Below, in pieces: positions 1 to 6,933 of a stretch of DNA of 6,933 nucleotides. Each line of letters starts with the position of its first letter. Position 1 is the first letter of the stretch. The DNA comes from a virus. Taxonomy: Duplodnaviria > Heunggongvirae > Uroviricota > Caudoviricetes. The DNA lies in the IMG/VR virus record IMGVR_UViG_2548876700_000016; one strand, written 5' to 3'. A program made the translations under genes and the position numbers. The notes under the pieces are model-generated. The model worked only from the letters and a program-made list of their open reading frames with translations. It was not told where the DNA came from and did not search any database.

Positions 1-183
1 CCGGAACTGATAAACAGGCATCACGCAATCATATTCGTAACCTTCACGGCGGTAAGTTACGCACCGTCCCGCCACGCCCTTAATCATTACCGTGCCGCCG
101 TACTGGTCGCGGTAAATATCACCGCGCGTAAATTTAGGGTGAGTGTTGCCACTGGCAGTTAAGCCAGAATATTTAAGTTTCAT
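1..183 (-). CDS. Hypothetical small protein, 5' part only (61 codons open to the window edge; 3' end lies beyond position 1)
   Basis: ATG at 183-181 on the minus strand with GGAGA about 9 nt upstream; starts 5 nt after the stop of the 189-422 gene; no stop codon through to the window edge. N-terminus reads MKLKYSGLTASGNTHPKFTRGDIYRDQYGG... Not on the ORF track because it is truncated. Confidence 0.4.
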   Translation of the reverse strand, partial: MKLKYSGLTASGNTHPKFTRGDIYRDQYGGTVMIKGVAGRCVTYRREGYEYDCVMPVYQFR

Positions 184-188
184 TATTT

Positions 189-422
189 TTATTCTCCGGT
201 GTGCTGTTCGTTATATCTGTCGTGCAATGTCTCTATTTCCTGCAACTCATTTATTACAGGCTCAAGAAGCGTTATTAATGATGTAATAATCCGCGTTTTT
301 TTTGCATTACGTTCATTATCGCCAAAGGATTCAAGGCACATCCGCAATATTTCGTACATACCTTCAGCGTAAGCAAGGGCACTAAATGCGCGGTCTATTG
401 TTTCAAGATAAATATCACGCAT
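189..422 (-). CDS. Hypothetical small protein (77 aa)
   Basis: ORF-track ORF. The upstream gene's stop (TAA, 426-424) is 1 nt from this ATG (422-420), and a GGGGA Shine-Dalgarno lies inside the upstream gene's 3' end: classic translational coupling. No recognisable family. Confidence 0.5.
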   Translation of the reverse strand: MRDIYLETIDRAFSALAYAEGMYEILRMCLESFGDNERNAKKTRIITSLITLLEPVINELQEIETLHDRYNEQHTGE

Positions 423-423
423 A

Positions 424-645
424 TTAATCCCCGTCCGTTGTTTTTCTTAAAACAGCTTCTGTCACGAAATCAGCATAGTTAGCGGCAATATCAAGAATAT
501 TTAGCCCTGTACCTCTGTGCTCATCAGTGCAAAGAAAGAAAAAAGCCACCCGCATAATTTCAGATATTGACGAAAGCGCATCAGCCGCATCATCAGGAAC
601 GCCGGAAAATTCTTGTTTCAGGGAATTAAAACGATCATCACGCAT
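424..645 (-). CDS. Hypothetical small protein (73 aa)
   Basis: ORF-track ORF. ATG at 645-643 preceded by GGGAGGGGGGG with about 7 nt spacing; its start overlaps the 3' end of the upstream 618-863 gene by 28 nt in another frame. No recognisable family. Confidence 0.5.
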   Translation of the reverse strand: MRDDRFNSLKQEFSGVPDDAADALSSISEIMRVAFFFLCTDEHRGTGLNILDIAANYADFVTEAVLRKTTDGD

Positions 646-863
646 AACCCCCCCTCCCCATTTTCACAATCAGCAACAAGAATATTTTTAGCGTCATTCA
701 GCGACCGCGTGGCGGTGTATCGGATGCATTCCAGGGCGAACAATGTGTATTCTTCCCGTTCTTCCTTTTGTGCAAGCCCTGCTGTGCATTCAATATCAAT
801 AAGCGCATGCATCAGCGTAGTGAGCGCGGCGGCGGCTGCGTCCGGCGTGGTTTTATTGTGCAT
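618..863 (-). CDS. Hypothetical small protein (81 aa from the internal Met; the track ORF extends to 893)
   Basis: ATG at 863-861 with GGGGGA 5 nt upstream; this start overlaps the last codons of the 853-1320 gene by 8 nt. The same stop/SD/ATG arrangement is repeated at 1313-1320 for the paralogous upstream gene. The first Met of the track ORF (893) has no SD. Confidence 0.35.
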   Translation of the reverse strand: MHNKTTPDAAAAALTTLMHALIDIECTAGLAQKEEREEYTLFALECIRYTATRSLNDAKNILVADCENGEGGLCVMIVLIP

Positions 864-1320
864 AGGTTTCCCCCTGACGAATACGGGCGACAAAAATCAG
901 ATGTGCGTGCGGCAGCTGGGCGCGGGCTTCGCGTTCTGTTGCTGCCGTGACGGTAAAGAGTGAGGTTTGTTTTTCCTGGCACTGCATAAAGCGCCAGACA
1001 AAATAAGGGCGTGCGGATACAGCCATGTGAAAGGCTCCCAGATGAATTTTAAGGAGTCTCGCTACTACGCTGTCAAACATGGTGGCGAGACGTAACAGGG
1101 TTGACAGACTGGTCATCTGGAAACCAGCGAGCACAAAGGCTCCCCCGTTACGCCCCGCCATAATGCGGGTATGGGTAGGTTTACGGACACAAAAAAACCG
1201 CTTATCGGATGTGGGCGGCTGTCCGCCAGATGTATTCAGGCTGTCAAACCCGGTCGCCATGTGGGCGACGGGGGAAGCATACAGCCCCGTGATAATTTTT
1301 TGCAAGCGGTTTTTACGCAT
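853..1320 (-). CDS. Hypothetical protein (155 aa) whose C-terminal 57 aa are paralogous to the 67-aa protein at 1313-1516; may alternatively be expressed as a standalone 57-aa protein from the internal ATG at 1026
   Basis: Continuous ORF. ATG at 1320-1318 overlaps the upstream gene's stop by 8 nt with a GGGG SD. The internal ATG at 1026-1024 has its own GGGAG SD about 8 nt upstream. The C-terminal segment ...YFVWRFMQ...ATEREARAQ...LIFVARIRQG aligns with ...YIWRFIAL...ATSEQEARQQ...VFAARIRQG of the 1313-1516 protein, with synonymous codon differences (cgc/cgt, gcc/gca) that support this frame. Confidence 0.45.
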   Translation of the reverse strand: MRKNRLQKIITGLYASPVAHMATGFDSLNTSGGQPPTSDKRFFCVRKPTHTRIMAGRNGGAFVLAGFQMTSLSTLLRLATMFDSVVARLLKIHLGAFHMAVSARPYFVWRFMQCQEKQTSLFTVTAATEREARAQLPHAHLIFVARIRQGETYAQ

Positions 1321-1516
1321 GATGTGACCCCTGACGAATACGGGCAGCGAATACCATCACGCAGCCAGCCGGAGATTGCTGGCGTGCTTCCTGTTCGCTG
1401 GTGGCCTCAATGGTAATCACGCGCGGTTGTGCCGTGCTCAGGGCGATAAAACGCCAGATGTATTTATTCAGGTTGTGCGAGTCCCGCCCTTGCGGGTGTG
1501 TGGTATGATTTCTCAT
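1313..1516 (-). CDS. Hypothetical small protein (67 aa), first gene of the minus-strand small-gene operon
   Basis: ATG at 1516-1514 with GAGGT 4 nt upstream. It is the C-terminal 67 codons of the 354-aa track ORF. Paralogous to the C-terminus of the 853-1320 protein. Sits directly downstream of the divergent control region. Confidence 0.55.
   Translation of the reverse strand: MRNHTTHPQGRDSHNLNKYIWRFIALSTAQPRVITIEATSEQEARQQSPAGCVMVFAARIRQGSHHA
1501..1509 (+). promoter_or_regulatory. Candidate extended -10 promoter element (TGgTATGAT) on the plus strand
   Basis: Sequence tggtatgat fits the extended -10 consensus TGnTATAAT with one mismatch. It lies about 45 nt upstream of the terminator hairpin at 1553-1597 and inside the first codons of the minus-strand gene. 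No convincing -35, which is common for extended -10 promoters. Confidence 0.3.
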
Positions 1517-1552
1517 AGCTACCTCGATACGCTTTCTATCGTTGGTGGTTAG

Positions 1553-1597
1553 AAGCCCTGCGAGTGGTAACGACACTTGCGGGGCTTTGCTTTTTAC
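1553..1597 (+). terminator. Rho-independent terminator-like hairpin, plus-strand specific
   Basis: AAGCCCTGCGAGTG (1553-1566) pairs with CACTTGCGGGGCTT (1574-1587): 14 bp with two G-U wobbles that would be A-C mismatches in the minus-strand RNA. 7-nt loop, followed by TGCTTTTTA. Confidence 0.5.
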
Positions 1598-1612
1598 TGT
1601 ACCTACTGATAT

Positions 1613-1656
1613 TGTACGTACGTAACAGCAATGATAATAGGAGTTACGTACGTACA
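1613..1656. promoter_or_regulatory. Perfect 14-bp inverted repeat, candidate operator for the Arc-like repressor
   Basis: TGTACGTACGTAAC (1613-1626) and GTTACGTACGTACA (1643-1656), separated by 16 bp. The spacer contains the AGGAG Shine-Dalgarno (1639-1643) and the right arm abuts the ATG at 1656. A candidate minus-strand promoter (TACAAT / TTATCA) overlaps the arms. Confidence 0.55.
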
Positions 1657-1847
1657 TGTCAACATTAAAGCGCGATAAATCGCCACGCGGTGAGGGATGG
1701 TCTCCAACCTTCCAAATCAGAATCAGTAAAGAGCTACGCCAACAAGTAAATGAGGCGGCAACTTCTGACGGTCTAACCCTTGGTAACTGGTTTAAAGAAT
1801 TAGCTAGGGCAGAACTAAAGCGGCGCGGCATAGAGCCAAAAGGTTGA
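1656..1847 (+). CDS. Arc/Mnt-family ribbon-helix-helix DNA-binding protein (63 aa)
   Basis: PTFQIRISKELRQQVNEAATSDGLTLGNWFKELARAELKRRG aligns position by position with the P22 Arc core PQFNLRWPREVLDLVRKVAEENGRSVNSEIYQRVMESFKKEG (beta-strand F-x-L/I-R, then two helices). AGGAG SD at 1639-1643, 12 nt from the ATG. Confidence 0.75.
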   Translation: MSTLKRDKSPRGEGWSPTFQIRISKELRQQVNEAATSDGLTLGNWFKELARAELKRRGIEPKG

Positions 1848-1868
1848 ATTTCAGAAGGAGATAAAATA

Positions 1869-2021
1869 ATGAACTGGCTGTTACATACCCTCCCAGGTCG
1901 CATTCTCATTGCACTAATTATTTTATGGATTTTGTACCAATTCGGTTTTTTCGATTCGCTTTGGAAGCCTGACTGTTCCGTTAACCCTGGCGATGTACTG
2001 AAAGGCTGTAAAAATGGCTGA
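1869..2021 (+). CDS. Small single-pass membrane peptide (50 aa), below the ORF-track size cutoff
   Basis: AAGGAG (1855-1860) 8 nt upstream of ATG at 1869. Translates to MNWLLHTLPGRILIALIILWILYQFGFFDSLWKPDCSVNPGDVLKGCKNG, with a hydrophobic helix ILIALIILWILYQFGFF and a short tail with two Cys. Stop TGA at 2019-2021. Starts 21 nt after the Arc-like gene's stop. Confidence 0.55.
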   Translation: MNWLLHTLPGRILIALIILWILYQFGFFDSLWKPDCSVNPGDVLKGCKNG

Positions 2022-2052
2022 TCAGGGTTACTCCCTGTAATGCCTTTAACTG

Positions 2053-2080
2053 GCCCTCTTAAAGAGGGTTGGTTATCTTC
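2053..2080 (+). terminator. Weak terminator-like hairpin downstream of the RHH/membrane-peptide bicistron
   Basis: CCCTC (2054-2058) / GAGGG (2064-2068) with loop TTAAA, followed by a T-rich but interrupted tract TTGGTTATCTT. Confidence 0.3.
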
Positions 2081-2330
2081 GCAGCTCTCTACGTTTTTCG
2101 TCGGAACCTCTGAACCTAAGCAGTGTTGATGTTCAGGAGAACCCGAATACTGTTCGTGTTCGTTGCTCGCCAATTCTCGCGTTTCGCGATAATCAAAATG
2201 ATTCAATGGGTTGAGATGTCCGTACGTTAAACGTACGCGGTTAATTTGTACGTGCGAATTTCGTCGGCTCAAATTCTGCGCAACCCTGATTGAGTTATGC
2301 AAATAGCACGCGGCTAACTCACAAGGATTT

Positions 2331-2362
2331 GAGCGCCCCCAAACGGGGGAGCGCAAAATTTT
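2331..2362. terminator. GC-rich hairpin between the convergent operons, possible terminator for either strand
   Basis: CCCCC (2336-2340) / GGGGG (2345-2349) with loop AAAC, extended by 2-3 flanking base pairs with one mismatch, followed by AAAATTTT. Lies 15-45 nt downstream of the Rha-like stop on the minus strand. Neither strand has a clean U-run immediately after the stem. Confidence 0.3.
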
Positions 2363-2376
2363 AGGCATAAGACGCA

Positions 2377-3087
2377 TCAGCGAATCTCCAACACTGACGA
2401 TGAAGTGATCAGGCTGGCGAACGCATCCATACGGCGGGCAACCTCACGCACCGCATCGCCTGGACTCATGTCATTACGCACCGCCTCATTAAAGGCCGCC
2501 TGTTCGATTTTCTGCATCACTACCAACAGCCCCAATTGCTGTTCGTCTGCGGTACCGCGTTCACCATCAGACAAACCAGCCACGCGGTTTTCAGCGCGGG
2601 CCAGATTGATGTAATGGTGCCGTTGTGCGCCCAGAGCTTTTAATCTGTCGCGGCTTTCGTGATAGCCAGGCAGGTACTCACGGCGGATAGGTTCTGCGGC
2701 GCGGCGCTTAGTGAATGCCTTCGTAACATCCAGTTTGAACTGGTTAATACGCTCAGGATCACGCCCTCGGGTGATACGCAGCAGATAGTCGAGCTGCGGC
2801 TCATTCAGCAGATAACTAATCTCAGGACGCCCACGCTTTCGGCCGGATTTTCCCGATTTCAAATCGGTTAATTCCTTGAGTGACTGACGAGGCAGTGATC
2901 CCAGCTCGCGCAATCTGCTCTGGTGCGATTTAATCGTCGCGCTTAGGCTTTCATGTTGTATTCCGGCTCGCTCTGAAATAACGCGGGAATCGATACGCGG
3001 CTCCGATTTGTGATTAATTAAAATATCGCTCTGGCTGGCTTCAGGGTGAGCGAATCCCTGCCCGTTGAGGGCATTAATCTTTTTCAT
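2377..3087 (-). CDS. Rha-family phage regulatory protein (236 aa)
   Basis: N-terminal region IDSRVISERAGIQHESLSATIKSHQSRLRELG matches the Rha-domain signature D-S-R-x-I-x-E-x-x-G-x-x-H-x-x-L-x-x-x-I as I recall it. Starts 20 nt after the alpA-like stop, so probably co-transcribed. C-terminal region not recognised. Confidence 0.6.
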   Translation of the reverse strand: MKKINALNGQGFAHPEASQSDILINHKSEPRIDSRVISERAGIQHESLSATIKSHQSRLRELGSLPRQSLKELTDLKSGKSGRKRGRPEISYLLNEPQLDYLLRITRGRDPERINQFKLDVTKAFTKRRAAEPIRREYLPGYHESRDRLKALGAQRHHYINLARAENRVAGLSDGERGTADEQQLGLLVVMQKIEQAAFNEAVRNDMSPGDAVREVARRMDAFASLITSSSVLEIR

Positions 3088-3107
3088 CTCTGATTACCTG
3101 TAGTTAA

Positions 3108-3392
3108 TTAAGCAGATTTGCGGCTGTATGGGTTATTGACGTTCTCTACTACAGGCGGATTACGAACCCACCAGAGCACATCAGAAAGAAGCCAGGCACA
3201 GCTATTGCGGCCGAAGTGGCAGCGTGGCGGAAATCGTCCTTGCTGCTCCATTTTCCAACGGCTGGAACGGGAAAGGCTGGTGATCTCGCTACATTCTTCT
3301 TCACGGATTCGACGATCGAACTTAAAGCCGTACTCTTCTAAAAGGGTGCGGCGCTGTTCAGGATTAGGCGGGGTAAAAATGGGGTTTTGCAT
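3108..3392 (-). CDS. alpA: AlpA-family (Xis/MerR-like HTH) prophage transcriptional regulator (94 aa from the internal Met; the track ORF extends to 3434)
   Basis: EITSLSRSSRWKMEQQGRFPPRCHFGRNSCAWLLSDVLWWV follows the AlpA pattern (T-G/S-L-S-R-S-T-I-Y...G-x-F-P-x-P...W...E-V/I-x-x-W). GGAGG lies 4 nt upstream of the ATG at 3392-3390; the first Met of the track ORF (3434) has no SD. Confidence 0.75.
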   Translation of the reverse strand: MQNPIFTPPNPEQRRTLLEEYGFKFDRRIREEECSEITSLSRSSRWKMEQQGRFPPRCHFGRNSCAWLLSDVLWWVRNPPVVENVNNPYSRKSA

Positions 3393-3472
3393 GTTGCCTC
3401 CACTGTTTCTAAGTTTGTGGAGGCTAGTTTGCAACCGTTAACACTGGATAGAAATACAGTTGTAAGCATAGA

Positions 3473-3509
3473 AGCATACTGATAATGCTTATAAATATAT
3501 CAGTATGCT
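3473..3509. promoter_or_regulatory. Perfect 12-bp inverted repeat between the orphan gene and alpA; candidate operator or terminator
   Basis: AGCATACTGATA (3473-3484) and TATCAGTATGCT (3498-3509), separated by a 13-nt AT-rich spacer. Lies 22-58 nt downstream of the 309-aa gene's stop and about 80 nt upstream of the alpA start. Confidence 0.45.
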
Positions 3510-3530
3510 ATAGGAGTATATGAGTAAGGC

Positions 3531-4460
3531 TTACTGTGTTCTTTCGCTCGGCCTCTTATGCGCATTGTTTAATATTGCTGCTATTTTCGTTTCTGTTTTT
3601 ATTGGCAATTCACCATTGATGAACCAGTCAGGTCTGGCGATCAACTCACGGGCCCAGGCAGAATAGTTAATAGTTCCATCTGTTTTTCTGCAACTCTCAT
3701 TAAAAGCATTTTGCTGCTCTTCTTTGAAGCGCATGGCTACCATTAAAATTTGCTCTCGATTTCTTGCATGTCTTTCAGCAGAATGATGAACAATTTCATT
3801 GCCATTCATCTTATGAGGTTCTACAAATTCAATATCATCTGTCAGCGTGAAATAATCGCCACCACAGTCAAGGAGCCGCCTTATATCCTGAGCAGTAATC
3901 CACAAATCGTTTATAGAGATTTTATTTTTGAATACTTGATCGTCTTCTTCATCATAATCGCTATCTTCGCCAACCATTAAAAGCTGTACGGCGGGATTAT
4001 CAGTTTCTGGATGGCACGGGGTTAATTCAAAACCACTTAGGGCATACTCTCCAAAATTTTGTAGCTCTTCTAATCCGCTCCAAAGACGCCACAACCCATA
4101 AGCCTTACCAATAGAACTGAAACACCCATTTTCTGTATCTTGACCAAATAAAGGCACGTGAATCGTTTCTTCCGTTTCCTCATTGTAATCGCATCTGTAG
4201 AGATGAAGCCTGGAAAATTCAGTAATATTGTTTCCCATCATGGATGTGGTGGAGTTTGCCTTTCTGGTATCGAACCAGTCGCATGCAGATTTGCTGTCAG
4301 TTCTCATATATAAAACAGCGCGAGCATCAAACAAATTTAGACATAAAGATATTTTTTTAGTAACACCTAAATTAATCAGGTCGCTAATCTCACAACCCAG
4401 CAATCTCGACGCACGTTCAATATTGCAGTATTGAAAAGGTATTTTAATGTCGTTAGCCAT
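3531..4460 (-). CDS. Hypothetical protein (309 aa), AT-rich orphan cargo gene of unknown function
   Basis: ORF-track ORF with GAGGG SD 7 nt upstream of ATG at 4460-4458. Visibly more AT-rich than the flanking int and alpA/rha genes. N-terminal stretch IERASRLLGCEISDLINLG looks HTH-like; central acidic stretch EDSDYDEEDD. No P-loop, nuclease or other catalytic motif recognised by eye. Confidence 0.7.
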   Translation of the reverse strand: MANDIKIPFQYCNIERASRLLGCEISDLINLGVTKKISLCLNLFDARAVLYMRTDSKSACDWFDTRKANSTTSMMGNNITEFSRLHLYRCDYNEETEETIHVPLFGQDTENGCFSSIGKAYGLWRLWSGLEELQNFGEYALSGFELTPCHPETDNPAVQLLMVGEDSDYDEEDDQVFKNKISINDLWITAQDIRRLLDCGGDYFTLTDDIEFVEPHKMNGNEIVHHSAERHARNREQILMVAMRFKEEQQNAFNESCRKTDGTINYSAWARELIARPDWFINGELPIKTETKIAAILNNAHKRPSERTQ

Positions 4461-4497
4461 TGCGCTGCCCTCAACGCCCCTAAATTAATTTGCGAGC

Positions 4498-4522
4498 CAA
4501 GCGGGTAGGGTTTCCCGCTTTT
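4498..4522. other. Short hairpin in the int/orphan intergenic region, weak terminator candidate
   Basis: AAGCGGG (4499-4505) / CCCGCTT (4514-4520) with an 8-nt loop. The plus-strand tail is TTTTCGG; the minus-strand tail has no T-run. Confidence 0.25.
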
Positions 4523-4553
4523 CGGTTGGCCGACCTAGGCCCGCAATATCAGT

Positions 4554-5780
4554 TTAATCTCTATTCATTACAGGTAACAGAACCACATTTTGATGATTAC
4601 CCGCAAGAAGTTCTAATCGTTCATACCACTTATTCAGCGCGTCCAGCTTCTCAGGCAAGTACAGACTACGGTTATAAATCGCCATAACTCCCGGCATTGA
4701 GTGCCCCAACAACTGTTCGACAACGTGTGGTGCTATACCCATATTATTCATATGCGTTGCTAAAGTTCGTCTTAGATCGTGCAGTGTCCATGGTTCAGAA
4801 TGCCCCAGCTTTTTATAAACGCTACGGCCCCACTGGCTTACCGCTTCACTGCCTTTAACCGACCCAAGCAAAAGACCGGATAGTTTCGTTTCATCATGCA
4901 GTATTTCAATGAATTTGCGCATGGCATCCGGCACAGGTCTTACAATCTTCTCGCCGCCCTTGCTGTGCTCTTTGGGAACTGTCCAGACCCAGGCATCCAT
5001 ATCCCATTCACTCCACTCTGATAGTCTGGCCTCCTGCGTTCGGCACCCAAACACCATTAAGATTGTCAGTAGCCTGGTGTAGTAAGGCATGAAGCAAGTG
5101 CTAGAGGTAATGGCAGTCCATAAATCGCCAGCCTCTTTATCGTTTAATACCCGATCTTTTTTTGCCTGTTTTTTACCGACATCTGGAATTGTTAAATCTT
5201 CAAGCGCGGTACTCACAGCATAGCGACGAACCCGGCAGAATTTCAGGGCTTGTTTGCACATCTGGAACACATAACCTGCGGCGACTGGCGTTTTCTTTTT
5301 CATCCTGTCAAAGCAGTCAAGCCAGTATCGGGTTTCGCAGTCAGCGAGCGCCATTTTTCCAATGTAAGGGTAAATATGTTTGCGTAGCTCCGCTTTATGC
5401 CGCTCAACATTCGCGCGATTCTCTTCTGCATATTCACGTATCCAGTATTCGATAGCTTCCTGCACCGTGACCGGTTTAAGCGTTTCCTGAGTAGTTAGCG
5501 CCAACTGGTGCTTTGGGTCTTTACCTGAGGCCAGCCACTGGCGGCATTTATCACGCGAGGAACGGGCCTCTTTGAGGCTCATATCCGGGTATCGTCCCAG
5601 AGTAAGACGATGCAACTTCTGCCCGTCGAGTCGGTAAGTAAACACCCAGCTAATACCACCAGCTTTCGTTACCTTGGCACTCAGCCCGGCACCATCAGCA
5701 TAGAACTCAATCTTACTGGCCGGGATGCCATGTAATCCCTTTAACTTCCTGTCGCTCAGTTTGTTAAGTTCGCCAGCCAT
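4554..5780 (-). CDS. int: Tyrosine recombinase/integrase, P4-type with an N-terminal arm-binding domain (408 aa from Met at 5780; the track ORF extends to 5864)
   Basis: C-terminal catalytic signature HDLRRT ... LLGHS ... AIYNRS (R, H-x-x-R, H, Y). N-terminal pattern L-x-D-x-K...DG-x-GL...W...YR...G-K...LG-x-YP-x-x-SL-x-x-AR typical of P4/CP4-type integrases. The Mets at 5864 and 5840 lack an SD; the Met at 5780 has a weak GGTGG. Confidence 0.85.
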   Translation of the reverse strand: MAGELNKLSDRKLKGLHGIPASKIEFYADGAGLSAKVTKAGGISWVFTYRLDGQKLHRLTLGRYPDMSLKEARSSRDKCRQWLASGKDPKHQLALTTQETLKPVTVQEAIEYWIREYAEENRANVERHKAELRKHIYPYIGKMALADCETRYWLDCFDRMKKKTPVAAGYVFQMCKQALKFCRVRRYAVSTALEDLTIPDVGKKQAKKDRVLNDKEAGDLWTAITSSTCFMPYYTRLLTILMVFGCRTQEARLSEWSEWDMDAWVWTVPKEHSKGGEKIVRPVPDAMRKFIEILHDETKLSGLLLGSVKGSEAVSQWGRSVYKKLGHSEPWTLHDLRRTLATHMNNMGIAPHVVEQLLGHSMPGVMAIYNRSLYLPEKLDALNKWYERLELLAGNHQNVVLLPVMNRD

Positions 5781-5797: not shown

Positions 5798-5819
5798 TGT
5801 TTATACAAATGTTTATACA
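5798..5819. repeat. Tandem direct repeat TGTTTATACA x2 (12-bp period) upstream of the int start
   Basis: tgtttatacaaa / tgtttatacag at 5798-5819, about 20 nt upstream of the int ATG in an AT-rich junction-proximal region. The position fits integrase arm-type or IHF-like sites; this is inference. Confidence 0.3.
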
Positions 5820-5947: not shown

Positions 5948-5964
5948 AGTACGGCATGAACTAA
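5948..5964 (+). other. fis: Displaced 3'-terminal fragment of fis (..YGMN-stop): candidate att core and right boundary of the integrated element
   Basis: TAC GGC ATG AAC TAA at 5950-5964 encodes YGMN-stop, the C-terminus of Fis as I recall it. An in-frame TGA at 5944-5946 and unrelated upstream sequence show that the rest of fis is not here. Downstream is the native-looking terminator and yhdJ. Confidence 0.5.
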
Positions 5965-5990
5965 TTCAGGTTAGCTAATTGCTTGATTAA

Positions 5991-6026
5991 AAGGCGCTAC
6001 TCGGCATGGGGAAGCGCCTTTTTTAT
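5991..6026 (+). terminator. Rho-independent terminator (the native fis terminator in its chromosomal context)
   Basis: AAGGCGCT (5991-5998) / AGCGCCTT (6013-6020), 8-bp perfect stem with a 14-nt loop, followed by TTTTTTAT. Confidence 0.7.
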
Positions 6027-6048: not shown

Positions 6049-6933
6049 ATGAGAACAGGATGTGAACCGACCCGGTTTGGTAATGAAGCTAAGACCATTA
6101 TTCACGGTGATGCCCTTGCCGAACTTAAAAAGCTACCTACTGAAAGCGTCGATCTGATCTTTGCCGACCCACCGTATAACATCGGTAAAAATTTTGATGG
6201 TCTGATCGAAGCCTGGAAAGAAGATCTGTTTATCGACTGGCTGTTAGAAGTGATTGCAGAGTGCCACCGCGTTCTGAAAAAGCAGGGCAGCATGTACATC
6301 ATGAACAGTACGGAAAACATGCCCTTTATCGATCTCCAGTGCCGCAAGCTTTTTACCATCAAAAGTCGCATCGTCTGGTCATATGACAGTTCTGGAGTGC
6401 AGGCGAAAAAACACTACGGCTCCATGTACGAACCCATCCTGATGATGGTGAAAGACGCAAAGAACTACACATTCAACGGTGATGCTATTCTGGTAGAAGC
6501 CAAAACCGGATCGCAGCGCGCGTTGATCGATTATCGCAAAAATCCTCCACAGCCTTACAATCATCAAAAAGTACCGGGTAACGTCTGGGATTTTCCGCGC
6601 GTGCGTTATTTGATGGATGAATATGAAAACCACCCGACGCAAAAACCGGAAGCCTTACTGAAACGCATTATTCTCGCCTCTTCCAACCCAGGCGATATCG
6701 TTCTCGACCCGTTTGCTGGTAGCTTTACTACCGGTGCCGTAGCCATCGCCAGCGGACGAAAATTCATTGGTATTGAGATCAACAGCGAGTACATCAAAAT
6801 GGGGCTTCGACGGCTGGATGTCGCGTCGCATTACTCTGCGGAAGAACTGGCGAAAGTGAAAAAAAGAAAGACCGGCAACCTGTCAAAACGAAGCCGGTTA
6901 AGCGAAGTTGACCCCGATCTCATTACAAAGTAA
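6049..6933 (+). CDS. yhdJ: DNA N6-adenine methyltransferase YhdJ (294 aa)
   Basis: Recognised as YhdJ from MRTGCEPTRFGNEAKTIIHGDALAELKK... and the DPPY motif (LIFADPPYNIG). AAGGGAG SD 7 nt upstream of ATG at 6049. The track ORF (5983-6933) adds an N-terminal extension that runs through the upstream terminator and is not credible. Confidence 0.9.
   Translation: MRTGCEPTRFGNEAKTIIHGDALAELKKLPTESVDLIFADPPYNIGKNFDGLIEAWKEDLFIDWLLEVIAECHRVLKKQGSMYIMNSTENMPFIDLQCRKLFTIKSRIVWSYDSSGVQAKKHYGSMYEPILMMVKDAKNYTFNGDAILVEAKTGSQRALIDYRKNPPQPYNHQKVPGNVWDFPRVRYLMDEYENHPTQKPEALLKRIILASSNPGDIVLDPFAGSFTTGAVAIASGRKFIGIEINSEYIKMGLRRLDVASHYSAEELAKVKKRKTGNLSKRSRLSEVDPDLITK

What the first reader, a model, noticed from the sequence alone, without database searches (positions are those of the whole stretch)
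2377..5780. int-orphan-alpA-rha same-strand block: a minimal regulatory core resembling CP4-57 or PICI-type elements
A P4-type integrase followed by an AlpA-family regulator is the signature of CP4-57-like cryptic prophages and Gram-negative phage-inducible islands, where AlpA controls int expression and excision. Here all four genes are co-oriented and there is no replication, capsid or packaging gene in nearly 6 kb from the junction. The element may therefore be a small satellite or defence-island-type element that depends on a helper phage, with the Rha-like protein as a sensor or antirepressor.
Basis: partly seen in the sequence, partly recalled or inferred. Interest (0 to 1): 0.45.

Follow-up and report, generated by a model that had tools for sequence, protein, structure and literature searches.

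The report
Control end of a capsid-forming phage satellite
The four same-strand genes are real, but they are the integrase-side control module of a known kind of phage satellite (a capsid-forming PICI inserted at the end of the E. coli fis gene), not a minimal element, and the unnamed gene with its RNA leader is a conserved but uncharacterised part of that module.

Summary
On the minus strand lie int (4554-5780), an unnamed 309-aa gene I call X (3531-4460), alpA (3108-3392) and a Rha-like gene (2377-3087).

The block is PICI-type. The lack of replication, capsid and packaging genes only reflects where the window ends. A 99.64% identical copy (L012) continues into a DUF4222 gene, a RepA-type helicase, SSB, an HK97 capsid, protease, portal and connectors. 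The closest complete relative of that half ends with HNH, TerS and TerL and has no tail or lysis genes. This is a capsid-forming PICI (cf-PICI) of about 15.5 kb, inserted at the 3' end and terminator of fis, next to yhdJ.

New details:
- X is always found as int-X-long AlpA, down to 36% identity.
- The Rfam "int-alpA RNA" motif lies in the int-to-X spacer in all 10 lineages that have it.
- A hairpin sequesters the alpA ribosome-binding site.
- The Rha position is a swappable cassette (Rha, AntA, Bro-N or ORF6N).
- An unexplained open frame runs from the rha stop codon, antisense through a small repressor gene, into an Icd-like domain.

Verdict: a new member of a known kind, of modest interest.

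The parts
5950..6026 (.). attR: a copy of the last 15 nt of fis plus the fis terminator. This is the right border of the element. The 25-nt stretch CGGCATGGGGAAGCGCCTTTTTTAT is identical to the left-end copy in L001.
   Evidence: Homology to the empty K-12 fis-yhdJ site starts at window 5950 (98.8% identity). L001 carries the diverged second copy directly after fis.
5798..5818 (+). Two direct TGTTTATAC repeats 12 nt apart, just upstream of the int start codon. They are probably arm-type Int-binding sites.
   Evidence: In the 45-kb locus L001 the 9-mer occurs exactly four times, two at each end of the element (0.19 expected). The window copies were found.
4554..5780 (-). int: a tyrosine recombinase with a P4-type arm-binding N-terminus (408 aa).
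   Evidence: Pfam PF13356, PF00589 and PF22022; phrog_1. It is 100% identical to the L012 protein. The catalytic motifs are conserved in the alignment with IntA.
4477..4545 (-). Rfam 'int-alpA RNA' motif (RF02996): a three-helix structure in the 93-nt spacer between the int stop and the X start, ending 16 nt before the X ATG.
   Evidence: 61.2 bits against a gathering score of 35.8. The same position holds in 10 lineages. Nine of 16 pairs change on both sides, and 88% of cells are paired against 28-46% in slid controls.
3531..4460 (-). X: the 309-aa 'orphan'. It is a conserved, uncharacterised protein with MerR/Xis-type winged-helix elements, a beta-rich middle domain and a conserved helical C-terminus.
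3473..3509 (-). A perfect 12-bp inverted repeat (AGCATACTGATA / TATCAGTATGCT, 13-nt spacer) just after the X stop codon. It is either a terminator-like hairpin or an operator.
   Evidence: A hairpin occupies the equivalent position in Photorhabdus and Xenorhabdus relatives.
3396..3424 (-). A hairpin whose 3' arm GUGGAGGC contains the alpA Shine-Dalgarno sequence.
   Evidence: MFE -17 kcal/mol, z -5.1, 0 of 200 shuffles fold as well. The same hairpin is present in L025 and L028. The same topology, with different arm sequences and no significant stability, appears in L024, L021 and L029.
3108..3392 (-). alpA: the long (94-aa) AlpA-family regulator.
   Evidence: PF05930, 39.4 bits; phrog_2790 'excisionase and transcriptional regulator', 131 bits. 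It is 45-49% identical to the 62-aa AlpA of the tqsA-type PICIs.
2377..3087 (-). Rha-like protein (236 aa), occupying a swappable cassette position downstream of alpA.
   Evidence: PF09669 below threshold; phrog_2657. Relatives carry AntA, Bro-N, ORF6N or unknown proteins at this position, all sharing the first ~22 residues, MKKINALNGQGFAHPEASQSDI.
1313..2377 (-). An uninterrupted 354-codon frame. Its ATG overlaps the rha stop codon (TGATG). It runs antisense through the RHH gene and the early promoter and ends as an Icd-like domain (about 1313-1519).
   Evidence: (NF033153, 68.8 bits). See Noticed in passing.
1656..1847 (+). A small divergent ribbon-helix-helix-type gene (63 aa; YlcI/YnfO, HicB or Arc-like). 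It is the candidate repressor of the early promoter.
   Evidence: PF05534, E 0.0024; phrog_228 Arc-like repressor; NF041551 below threshold. RefSeq annotates it in relatives as YlcI/YnfO or HicB antitoxin.
1613..1662 (-). Leftward early promoter TTGACA-17-TATTAT, bracketed by a perfect 14-bp inverted repeat (TGTACGTACGTAAC / GTTACGTACGTACA).
   Evidence: 11 of 12 promoter positions match. The inverted repeat was found. The -35 hexamer and first arm are invariant in 19 diverse elements, read as the DMYVRN columns of alignment A3.
1078..1282 (-). P1/P4-type immunity RNA module: the a1b1 target sites (1233-1282) and the C4 antisense RNA (1078-1165).
   Evidence: RF01695 at 72.6 bits and RF03163 at 46.8 bits.
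853..1081 (-). Second Icd-like ORF (76 aa). A b2-like copy of the C4 target (GTTTGACAGC, 1069-1078) lies immediately after its start codon (1079-1081).
   Evidence: Read from the sequence. NF033153 at 52.3 bits.
1..863 (-). Early-operon small ORFs (618-863, 424-645, 189-422) and the 5' part of a DUF4222 gene (1-183, cut by the window edge). They lead into the replication module outside the window.
   Evidence: phrog_5146, phrog_24341 and phrog_2196; PF13973 at 72 bits; the L012 gene order.
6049..6933 (+). Host flank: yhdJ, a DNA adenine methyltransferase. It is not part of the element.
   Evidence: PF01555 at 217 bits; annotated as yhdJ in all E. coli hits.

Best explanation
The block is the integrase-proximal control module of a capsid-forming phage-inducible chromosomal island (cf-PICI) of about 15.5 kb. 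The element sits at the 3' end and terminator of fis, next to yhdJ, in an E. coli-type chromosome.

Shown here:
- Int, with its arm-type repeats and an att duplication, defines the right end of the element.
- The genes int, X, alpA and rha are co-oriented with the rest of the element.
- A near-identical copy continues into replication genes (a RepA-like helicase, SSB) and a head-and-packaging module (HK97 capsid, protease, portal, head closure, connector). In the closest relative of that half, HNH, TerS and TerL follow, and no tail or lysis genes are annotated.

Inferred from published work on E. coli PICIs and cf-PICIs:
- The island stays integrated until a helper phage raises alpA expression.
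- AlpA then activates itself and the island's excision, replication and packaging programme.
- Int carries out excision and re-integration.
- The island builds its own small capsids, packages itself, and takes only tails and lysis from phages.

Inferred from anatomy in this study (untested):
- alpA is also gated after transcription, because its ribosome-binding site is locked in a stable hairpin.
- X is a conserved partner of int and the long AlpA. It is preceded by the structured 'int-alpA' RNA. It is most likely a DNA-binding regulatory or recombination-accessory protein rather than random cargo.
- The Rha-like gene occupies a cassette that different islands fill with Rha, AntA, Bro-N or ORF6N proteins. 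This fits an antirepressor-like interface with resident or helper phages.
- A small divergent RHH protein probably represses the strong early promoter through a 14-bp palindrome.
- In this island a P1/P4-type C4 antisense RNA adds a second brake on the downstream Icd-like and replication operon.
For: Identity and borders:
- The window is 99.64% identical over all 6933 nt to L012, and all four block proteins are 100% identical.
- L012 continues with DUF4222, AAA_25 helicase, SSB, PerC, Phage_capsid, Peptidase_S78, Phage_portal, Phage_HCP and Phage_connect_1.
- That half is 99.1% identical to L034, which ends HNH, TerS(P27), TerL and a 93-aa ORF, with no tail or lysis genes annotated.
- L001 (94.7% identical) shows a 15.7-kb element bounded by fis and yhdJ.
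- The empty K-12 site and the att duplication were mapped. Arm repeats lie at both ends.

Published definition and AlpA dependence of cf-PICIs:
- bioRxiv 10.1101/2022.09.08.507074, PMC10085698, PMC11773190.

Anatomy:
- X synteny holds in more than 9 independent contexts, down to 36% identity.
- RF02996 lies only in int-to-X spacers, and its structure covaries.
- alpA SD hairpin.
- Slot-2 cassette.
- Early promoter and palindrome.
- C4 RNA and a1b1 sites.
Against: - The far end of this particular element lies outside the window, so the capsid module is inferred from a 99.64% identical copy, not seen.
- The same early-operon genes (p77, DUF4222) also occur in classical PICIs without portal or TerL (L005, L006, L008), so modules do recombine.
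- No helper phage, induction, excision or transfer was or could be tested here.
- X is replaced by unrelated proteins (DUF6387, or a 216-aa hypothetical) in otherwise homologous islands at the same att site. That fits an accessory hotspot as well as a regulator.
- The SD hairpin is statistically strong only in the close relatives.
- The Rha Pfam match is below the gathering threshold.
Confidence: 0.85

Rival explanations
1. A classical, non-capsid-forming PICI or a truly minimal satellite. The element would carry only int, regulators, replication genes and at most a TerS or capsid-redirection gene, and would depend on the helper for capsids as well.
For: Inside the window there is no structural gene. 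The same p77-DUF4222 early genes are linked in L005, L006 and L008 to classical PICI packaging modules (Phage_Nu1 TerS, HDPD, Phage_cap_E) that lack portal and TerL. This shows that the left and right halves recombine.
Against: L012 matches the whole window at 99.64%, right up to the window edge, and carries the full head module. All 8 loci retrieved through the exact X protein have HK97 capsid modules.
Confidence: 0.08
2. A CP4-57-like cryptic prophage remnant, in which AlpA simply raises int expression and causes excision, with no satellite life cycle.
For: It has the same two Pfam families, a P4-type Int and AlpA. In CP4-57 a roughly 318-aa gene (yfjH) also lies between intA and alpA.
Against: Int is only 25% identical to IntA. 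AlpA aligns over 23 residues at E 0.004. YfjH is on the opposite strand and is unrelated to X (hhalign probability 0.2%). CP4-57 sits at ssrA, not at fis. All genes here are intact, and the block is conserved at 97-100% protein identity across elements at two att sites with different replication modules, which argues for an active mobile element.
Confidence: 0.03
3. A P4-like satellite. It would have a P4-type Int, an AlpA/Vis-like regulator and CI/C4-type immunity RNA, and would hijack P2-like helper capsids through Sid, Psu and Delta.
For: A C4-family RNA and its a1b1 targets are present, along with an Arm-DNA-bind_3 integrase and AlpA. PMC10085698 notes that AlpA is found in all P4-like elements.
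Against: No sid, psu or delta gene is annotated in any complete relative. Those relatives encode their own HK97 capsid, portal and TerL, which P4 lacks.
Confidence: 0.02
4. For the orphan X only: it is accessory cargo, for example an unrecognised anti-phage or host-adaptive gene, sitting in the known PICI hotspot between int and the regulator. On this reading it is not part of the control circuit.
For: [quoted passage not shown] The slot holds unrelated proteins (X, DUF6387, a 216-aa ORF) in homologous islands at the same att site.
Against: There is no PADLOC hit. X keeps the same position between int and a 93-94-aa AlpA from Escherichia to Xenorhabdus and Arsenophonus at 36-45% identity, and it carries a conserved structured RNA leader. 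The model contains MerR/Xis-like winged-helix elements. Such deep synteny is unusual for hotspot cargo.
Confidence: 0.35

Closest known systems
Capsid-forming PICIs (cf-PICI), prototype EcCIEDL933; also EcCIGN02175 and KpCIDSM30104 (Alqurainy et al., bioRxiv 10.1101/2022.09.08.507074; Moura de Sousa et al., PMC10085698; bioRxiv 10.1101/2025.02.11.637232)
   Same: It has int at one end, followed by alpA on the same strand. Then come a replication module, an HK97-type capsid, protease, portal, head-closure and connector genes, HNH, TerS and TerL. It is about 15 kb, has no tail or lysis genes, and has a dedicated att site. Near-identical modules are shared between Escherichia and other enterobacterial hosts.
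   Different: This island uses a 94-aa AlpA that is only 45-49% identical to the 62-aa AlpA of the tqsA-type islands. It carries the X gene with the RF02996 leader between int and alpA. It uses a RepA-type helicase rather than a primase, carries a C4/Icd immunity insert, and sits at the fis 3' end. I could not check whether that site is among the six published attB sites, because the tables are held only as images. I could not compare sequences with EcCIEDL933 or EcCIGN02175 directly.
Classical Gram-negative PICIs (EcCICFT073, EcCIED1a, EcCIMP1; PMC11773190)
   Same: The order int, alpA, antirepressor-like gene, Icd/Ash-type small genes, then primase or helicase is shared. AlpA is the helper-induced, self-activating master regulator, needed for excision and transfer. 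The early-operon genes p77 and DUF4222 are shared with L005, L006 and L008.
   Different: Classical PICIs lack portal, connectors and TerL and use helper capsids. The near-identical copy of this island has them.
Phage P1/P7 immI (c4 antisense RNA, icd, ant) and the P4 CI RNA immunity system (Rfam clan CL00128)
   Same: The order a1b1 sites, then C4 RNA, then a b2-like site at the start codon of an Icd-like ORF is the P1 immI layout.
   Different: Here the module is an insert found in only some of these islands (window, L002, L007). It sits upstream of replication genes rather than an ant gene. Regulation by the RNA was not tested.
CP4-57 cryptic prophage (intA, yfjH, alpA at ssrA)
   Same: It has a P4-type integrase and an AlpA-family regulator a short distance apart.
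   Different: Int is 25% identical, and AlpA similarity is marginal. The intervening gene is unrelated and on the other strand. The att site and the remainder of the element differ.
SaPI Stl master repressors (by analogy only; from my own knowledge)
   Same: Highly divergent, island-specific proteins next to int control the island's activation and sense helper proteins. The non-homologous occupants of the slot between int and alpA would fit such a role.
   Different: There is no sequence or fold similarity, X is co-directional with int, and no repression or helper-binding data exist.

Membership tests
cf-PICI (capsid-forming PICI) | Integrase at one end of an element of about 10-18 kb | tested here: met
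   int lies at 4554-5780, 170 nt from attR. The homologous element in L001 spans about 15.7 kb between fis and yhdJ.
cf-PICI (capsid-forming PICI) | AlpA, MerR or Stl-type regulator next to int | tested here: met
   PF05930 at 39.4 bits, above the cutoff of 21; phrog_2790 at 131 bits.
cf-PICI (capsid-forming PICI) | Replication module (primase or replicase) | tested here: inconclusive
   It is not inside the window. The 99.64% identical L012 has a 466-aa AAA_25 RepA-like helicase plus SSB directly after the DUF4222 gene that the window cuts.
cf-PICI (capsid-forming PICI) | Own capsid, protease, portal, head-tail adaptor and connector, HNH, TerS and TerL | tested here: inconclusive
   These are not inside the window. 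L012 has them as far as the connector. The 99.1% identical L034 adds HNH, TerS and TerL.
cf-PICI (capsid-forming PICI) | No tail and no holin or lysis genes | tested here: inconclusive
   None is annotated in the complete relatives L034, L003 and L025. L001 has one sub-threshold lambda tail-I-like ORF (19.2 bits against a cutoff of 23.8). The far end of this exact element was not seen.
cf-PICI (capsid-forming PICI) | Induction by a helper phage through alpA, small island-made capsids, transfer with phage tails | not testable with these tools
   This is experimental. Published for EcCIEDL933.
Classical Gram-negative PICI | int-alpA-rep core WITHOUT portal, connector or TerL | tested here: inconclusive
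   The core is present, but the near-identical copy carries portal and connector genes. These are 'forbidden' components in the PICI model of PMC10085698.
P4-like satellite | psu, delta and sid capsid-hijack genes together with alpha primase and epsilon | tested here: not met
   None is annotated in any complete relative, and no such Pfam or PHROG hit occurs among the window proteins.
CP4-57-like cryptic prophage | Close homology to IntA and AlpA of CP4-57, and insertion at ssrA | tested here: not met
   Int is 25% identical and AlpA aligns at E 0.004. No tRNA or tmRNA is in the window. The insertion is at fis.
Rha family (PF09669) | Score at or above the Pfam gathering threshold | tested here: not met
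   25.8 bits against 29.9. The resemblance is supported by phrog_2657 and by the RefSeq naming of a protein 98.7% identical over residues 1-228. 'Rha-like' is the safe wording.
int-alpA RNA (Rfam RF02996) | Covariance-model score at or above the gathering score, and helices that covary | tested here: met
   61.2 bits against 35.8. Nine of 16 pairs change on both sides, and 0 of 500 shuffles reach the observed pairing.
C4 antisense RNA system (RF01695 / RF03163) | C4 RNA with upstream a1b1 targets and a downstream target at the start of icd | tested here: met
   72.6 bits against 45, and 46.8 bits against 46.7. GTTTGACAGC is repeated at 1069-1078, directly after the ATG (1079-1081) of the second Icd-like ORF.

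The most novel reading that the evidence does not exclude
In this PICI lineage, induction may be a layered post-transcriptional switch rather than plain AlpA autoactivation. On this reading X, with its structured 'int-alpA' RNA leader, acts as the island-specific sensor or repressor, playing a role like Stl. The alpA ribosome-binding site is held shut by a hairpin until a helper signal arrives. AlpA-driven transcription is then carried by a deliberately stop-free, translationally coupled frame from rha, antisense across the RHH repressor gene and its promoter, into the Icd-like and replication operon. That would override repression and escape Rho termination.
Probability: 0.12. Interest if true: 0.65.

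Novelty: new member of a known kind. Interest (0 to 1): 0.3.

Why it matters
cf-PICIs are abundant in Enterobacteriaceae; PMC10085698 reports them in 13% of genomes. They move between genera by borrowing tails from unrelated phages, so how they are switched on is of practical interest for gene flow in clinical strains.

This window adds no new kind of element. It does show that one sub-lineage has a conserved, wholly uncharacterised partner gene (X) between int and alpA. It also shows that an orphan Rfam motif is in fact the leader of that gene, and that alpA carries a hairpin sequestering its ribosome-binding site. How the helper phage turns on alpA in Gram-negative PICIs is still described only as 'activated by the helper phage'. 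These features give concrete, testable handles on that step.

Tried and rejected
- **Defence-system reading of the block.** PADLOC found nothing for X, the Rha-like protein, AlpA or the RHH protein.
- **X related to DUF6387 or to CP4-57 YfjH.** These occupy the same slot in other elements. hhalign gave probabilities of 0.1-0.2%, so they are unrelated.
- **Solved-structure sequence search for the Rha-like protein.** No hit.
- **tRNA-linked integration.** There is no tRNA or tmRNA in the window. The site is the fis 3' end.
- **Scan of species-representative genomes for X.** Only five Xenorhabdus loci were found.
- **Ordinary coding gene for the stretch between rha and the RHH gene.** A codon-position test showed no third-position excess of substitutions, so normal purifying selection on a protein is not supported even though the frame stays open.
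- **The 50-aa hydrophobic ORF at 1869-2021 (+).** It was found only in near-identical copies, so there is no evidence either way.
- **Published attB lists and accession numbers for cf-PICIs.** The tables are held only as images, so I could not compare att sites or identify this island with a named one.

Full report
**1. What is in the window**

All element genes but one lie on the minus strand. Read in their direction of transcription, from the yhdJ side, the features are:
- attR, a 77-bp copy of the fis 3' end and terminator (5950-6026).
- Two TGTTTATAC repeats (5798-5818).
- int (5780-4554).
- A 93-nt spacer holding the Rfam int-alpA RNA motif (4545-4477).
- The 309-aa orphan, which I call X (4460-3531).
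- A 138-nt spacer with two hairpins.
- alpA (3392-3108).
- A Rha-like gene (3087-2377).
- A 354-codon open frame (2377-1313) that ends as an Icd-like domain.
- Embedded in that frame on the plus strand, a 63-aa ribbon-helix-helix-type gene (1656-1847).
- Overlapping that gene's start, a near-consensus leftward promoter with a perfect 14-bp palindrome (1613-1662).
- The a1b1 target sites and the C4 antisense RNA (1282-1078).
- A second Icd-like ORF (1081-853).
- Three small ORFs and the first 61 codons of a DUF4222 gene, cut by the window edge.

yhdJ (6049-6933, plus strand) is host DNA. No tRNA is present.

**2.

The four genes are at the coordinates given. Int and AlpA pass the Pfam thresholds. 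The 'Rha' match is below threshold (25.8 against 29.9 bits), but PHROGs supports it, and RefSeq names a protein 98.7% identical over residues 1-228 as a Rha family regulator. The orphan has no curated family.

**3. What the element is**

Megablast against complete E. coli genomes places the block between fis and yhdJ. There, a 94.7% identical relative (L001) shows a 15.7-kb island. Its gene order is int, hypothetical, HTH, hypothetical, HicB-like, Icd-like, primase, major capsid, HK97 protease, portal, head closure, connector, HNH, TerS and TerL.

A look-up by the exact X protein returned L012. It matches the whole window at 99.64% and all four block proteins at 100%. L012 continues past the window edge with DUF4222, a RepA-like AAA_25 helicase, SSB, PerC, Phage_capsid, Peptidase_S78, portal, head-closure and connector genes. 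That half is 99.1% identical to an E. coli island (L034) that ends HNH, TerS(P27), TerL and a 93-aa ORF. No tail or lysis gene is annotated there.

This is the published architecture of capsid-forming PICIs. Such elements are about 15 kb and carry int, alpA and rep plus a complete head-and-packaging module but no tails. They are induced through alpA by a helper phage. 'Minimal, without replication, capsid or packaging genes' is an effect of where the window ends.

One caveat applies. The same early genes also occur in classical PICIs (L005, L006 and L008). I therefore leave about 8% for a non-capsid-forming right half in this exact genome.

**4. Integration site**

The empty site in K-12 is the 85-bp fis-yhdJ spacer. 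K-12 homology resumes at window 5950, inside the last 15 nt of fis, at 98.8% identity. In L001 a diverged second copy of the fis end and terminator directly follows the intact fis gene. The island therefore inserts into the fis 3' end and terminator and supplies its own replacement, as tRNA-targeting islands do. The 9-mer TGTTTATAC occurs four times in the 45 kb of L001, twice just inside each end (0.19 expected). The window has the int-proximal pair. These are probably the arm-type sites for the Arm-DNA-bind_3 domain.

**5. The orphan X**

X has no Pfam, NCBIfam or PADLOC hit. Its only match is phrog_7144, of unknown function. A word-seeded search found 20 clusters, from Enterobacter, Photorhabdus and Arsenophonus. 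An exhaustive profile search found 332 representatives of similar length. Ten remote members scanned against Pfam also had no family.

The informative evidence is context. Every context I could retrieve has the order int, X, a 93-94-aa AlpA, then a variable gene. This holds at 100% identity with two different integrases and att sites, and with three different replication modules. It also holds at 36-45% identity in Photorhabdus, Arsenophonus, Xenorhabdus and metagenomes.

X is essentially absent from 50,697 phage records. The single hit sits in a PICI-like segment of one Klebsiella phage record. It is also rare in E. coli, present in 12 of 5,426 complete genomes.

Against a core role, homologous islands at the same fis or gcd sites with the same long AlpA carry an unrelated DUF6387 protein or a 216-aa ORF in this slot. 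The literature names this position as a PICI accessory-gene site. I therefore rate 'regulatory or recombination partner' only somewhat above 'cargo'.

**6. RNA-level features of the block**

*The int-alpA RNA motif.* RF02996 scores 61 bits in the window. Across all loci examined it was found in 10 lineages. In each it lies in the 89-97-nt spacer between the int stop and the X start, ending 14-18 nt before the ATG. It was absent from eight related islands that lack X, and from X-bearing islands where int and X abut. In an alignment of seven diverse copies, 9 of 16 pairs change on both sides. Pairing is 88%, against 28-46% for slid controls. The motif is thus better described as the X leader or the int 3' UTR. 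Its invariant loop ACCCUA is complementary to the invariant UAGGG that follows the outer helix. A pseudoknot is therefore possible, but because both are invariant there is no covariation to support it.

*The hairpin after X.* A perfect 12-bp inverted repeat follows the X stop codon.

*The alpA ribosome-binding site.* The alpA GGAGG lies in the 3' arm of an 8-bp hairpin (-17 kcal/mol, z -5.1, 0 of 200 shuffles). The hairpin is present in islands whose upstream gene is X or DUF6387. Distant relatives show the same SD-pairing topology with different arm sequences, although it is not statistically significant there. This suggests that alpA is gated at translation as well as transcription. Published work says only that the helper phage activates alpA expression and that AlpA autoactivates.

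**7. The Rha-like gene is a cassette**

In relatives this position holds Rha-like, AntA, Bro-N, ORF6N or unknown proteins. All share the first ~22 residues and then diverge completely. The DNA downstream is conserved again. Function was not tested, and no solved relative exists.

**8. Downstream control region (outside the finding, but part of the same circuit)**

A strong leftward promoter (11 of 12 consensus positions) is bracketed by a perfect 14-bp palindrome. It overlaps the start codon of the divergent RHH gene. The -35 hexamer and the first arm are invariant in 19 diverse islands. The RHH protein is the obvious candidate repressor.

This island also carries a P1 immI-like insert. It consists of a1b1 sites, the C4 RNA, and a b2-like repeat (GTTTGACAGC) directly after the ATG of a second Icd-like ORF. 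The insert is present in only some relatives.

**9. An unexplained feature**

The stretch between the rha stop and the Icd-like domain is partly left unannotated in RefSeq relatives. It is nevertheless one stop-free frame of 354 codons, and its ATG overlaps the rha stop (TGATG).

Equivalent open frames of 200-404 codons start at the stop codon of whichever cassette gene is present in 13 of 15 islands checked. One of these is a distant island (L024) with no sequence similarity in that region. The other two frames carry 8-16 stops per ~500 nt. Indels between islands are 27, 48, 54 and 102 nt, all multiples of three. Yet substitutions show no third-position bias. The most 'conserved' protein columns are those that are antisense to the RHH gene or that spell the promoter. 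Protein databases hold 402 clusters of such long ORFs, some named 'Icd-like' by NCBI.

Two readings remain. One is a long Icd-like protein with a disordered N-terminus. The other is a frame kept open so that translation accompanies read-through transcription from the alpA-rha unit across the repressor gene into the early operon. I could not discriminate between them.

**10. Comparison and verdict**

[quoted passage not shown] The left-end features were tested here. The right-end features were seen only in a 99.64% identical copy.

It is not P4-like, because no sid, psu or delta gene is annotated in any relative. It is not CP4-57-like beyond Pfam families: Int is 25% identical, AlpA aligns at E 0.004, and the intervening gene is unrelated and on the other strand. 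No known defence system lies in the block.

The kind is known and near-identical sequences are already public, so novelty is 'new member of a known kind' and interest is modest (0.3). The parts worth a specialist's attention are the X / RF02996 / long-AlpA module, the alpA SD hairpin, and the stop-free bridge across the repressor gene.

Noticed in passing
window 1313-2377 (-); also L001, L003, L013, L014, L016-L018, L024-L028: A stop-free frame of 200-404 codons runs from the stop codon of the cassette gene (TGATG or GTGA overlap). It passes antisense through the RHH gene and the early promoter and ends in the Icd-like domain. Indels between islands are all multiples of 3, but there is no third-position substitution bias. 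RefSeq annotates only the short Icd-like part in most relatives, and protein databases hold 402 clusters of the long form.
   Followed up: partly
window 1078-1282 and 853-1081 (-): A P1 immI-type module: a1b1 target sites, the C4 antisense RNA, and a b2-like copy (GTTTGACAGC, 1069-1078) directly after the start codon of a second Icd-like ORF. It is present in only some related islands (window, L012, L002, L007).
   Followed up: partly
window 1613-1662 (-) and 1656-1847 (+): A near-consensus promoter (TTGACA-17-TATTAT) is flanked by a perfect 14-bp palindrome, TGTACGTACGTAAC. The start codon of the divergent 63-aa RHH (YlcI/YnfO, HicB or Arc-like) gene lies inside the -35 region. The -35 hexamer and first arm are invariant in 19 diverse islands.
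   Followed up: partly
window 3396-3424 (-): The alpA Shine-Dalgarno sequence is sequestered in an 8-bp hairpin (-17 kcal/mol, z -5.1). The hairpin is conserved whether the upstream gene is X or DUF6387.
   Followed up: partly
window 5950-6026 and 5798-5818; L001 8650-8750 and 24270-24430: The island integrates into the 3' end and terminator of fis and brings a diverged replacement copy. Paired TGTTTATAC repeats lie just inside both ends.
   Followed up: yes
window 3021-3087 (-); alignment A4: The cassette proteins downstream of alpA (Rha-like, AntA, ORF6N, Bro-N, unknown) share an N-terminal stretch of about 22 residues (MKKINALNGQGFAHPEASQSDI) before diverging into unrelated domains. This is either a recombination anchor or a functional leader peptide.
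   Followed up: partly
window 1869-2021 (+): A 50-aa ORF with a hydrophobic helix (ILIALIILWILYQFGFF) lies directly downstream of the RHH gene. It was found only in near-identical copies (L003, L012), so whether it is real is unknown.
   Followed up: partly
L001 16209-17054 (-) and the same protein in L025: Related fis-site islands carry a protein with two 'pPIWI-associating nuclease' domains (PF18165, PF18166) between the primase and capsid genes. It may be defence cargo. It is not present in the window.
   Followed up: no
L001 9008-9607 (-): One related island has a lone ORF after TerL annotated as 'tail assembly protein'. Its match to lambda tail protein I is below threshold (19.2 bits against 23.8).
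   Followed up: partly
L012 14039-14270: The 77-aa early-operon ORF that is intact in the window (189-422) is split by a frameshift in the otherwise 99.64% identical L012 copy.
   Followed up: no
L036 (PQ569648.1, Klebsiella phage P12620-1) 7670-18924: A 106-kb record deposited as a phage contains a PICI-like segment (int, RF02996, X homologue and further genes, all annotated 'hypothetical protein'). It may be a chimeric assembly or a co-purified satellite.
   Followed up: no
L021 (Photorhabdus) 14101-16650: Immediately downstream of the X-bearing island there are STAXI and EFASI RNA motifs, followed by a second integrase, AlpA and a C4 RNA. This looks like a tandem array of islands.
   Followed up: no
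window 2055-2310 (-); alignment A2: The conserved stretch after the cassette gene is built from short palindromic units (CCCTCTTTAAGAGGG, CGTACGTTTAACGTACG, CGCGAAACGCG). Their number varies between islands.
   Followed up: partly
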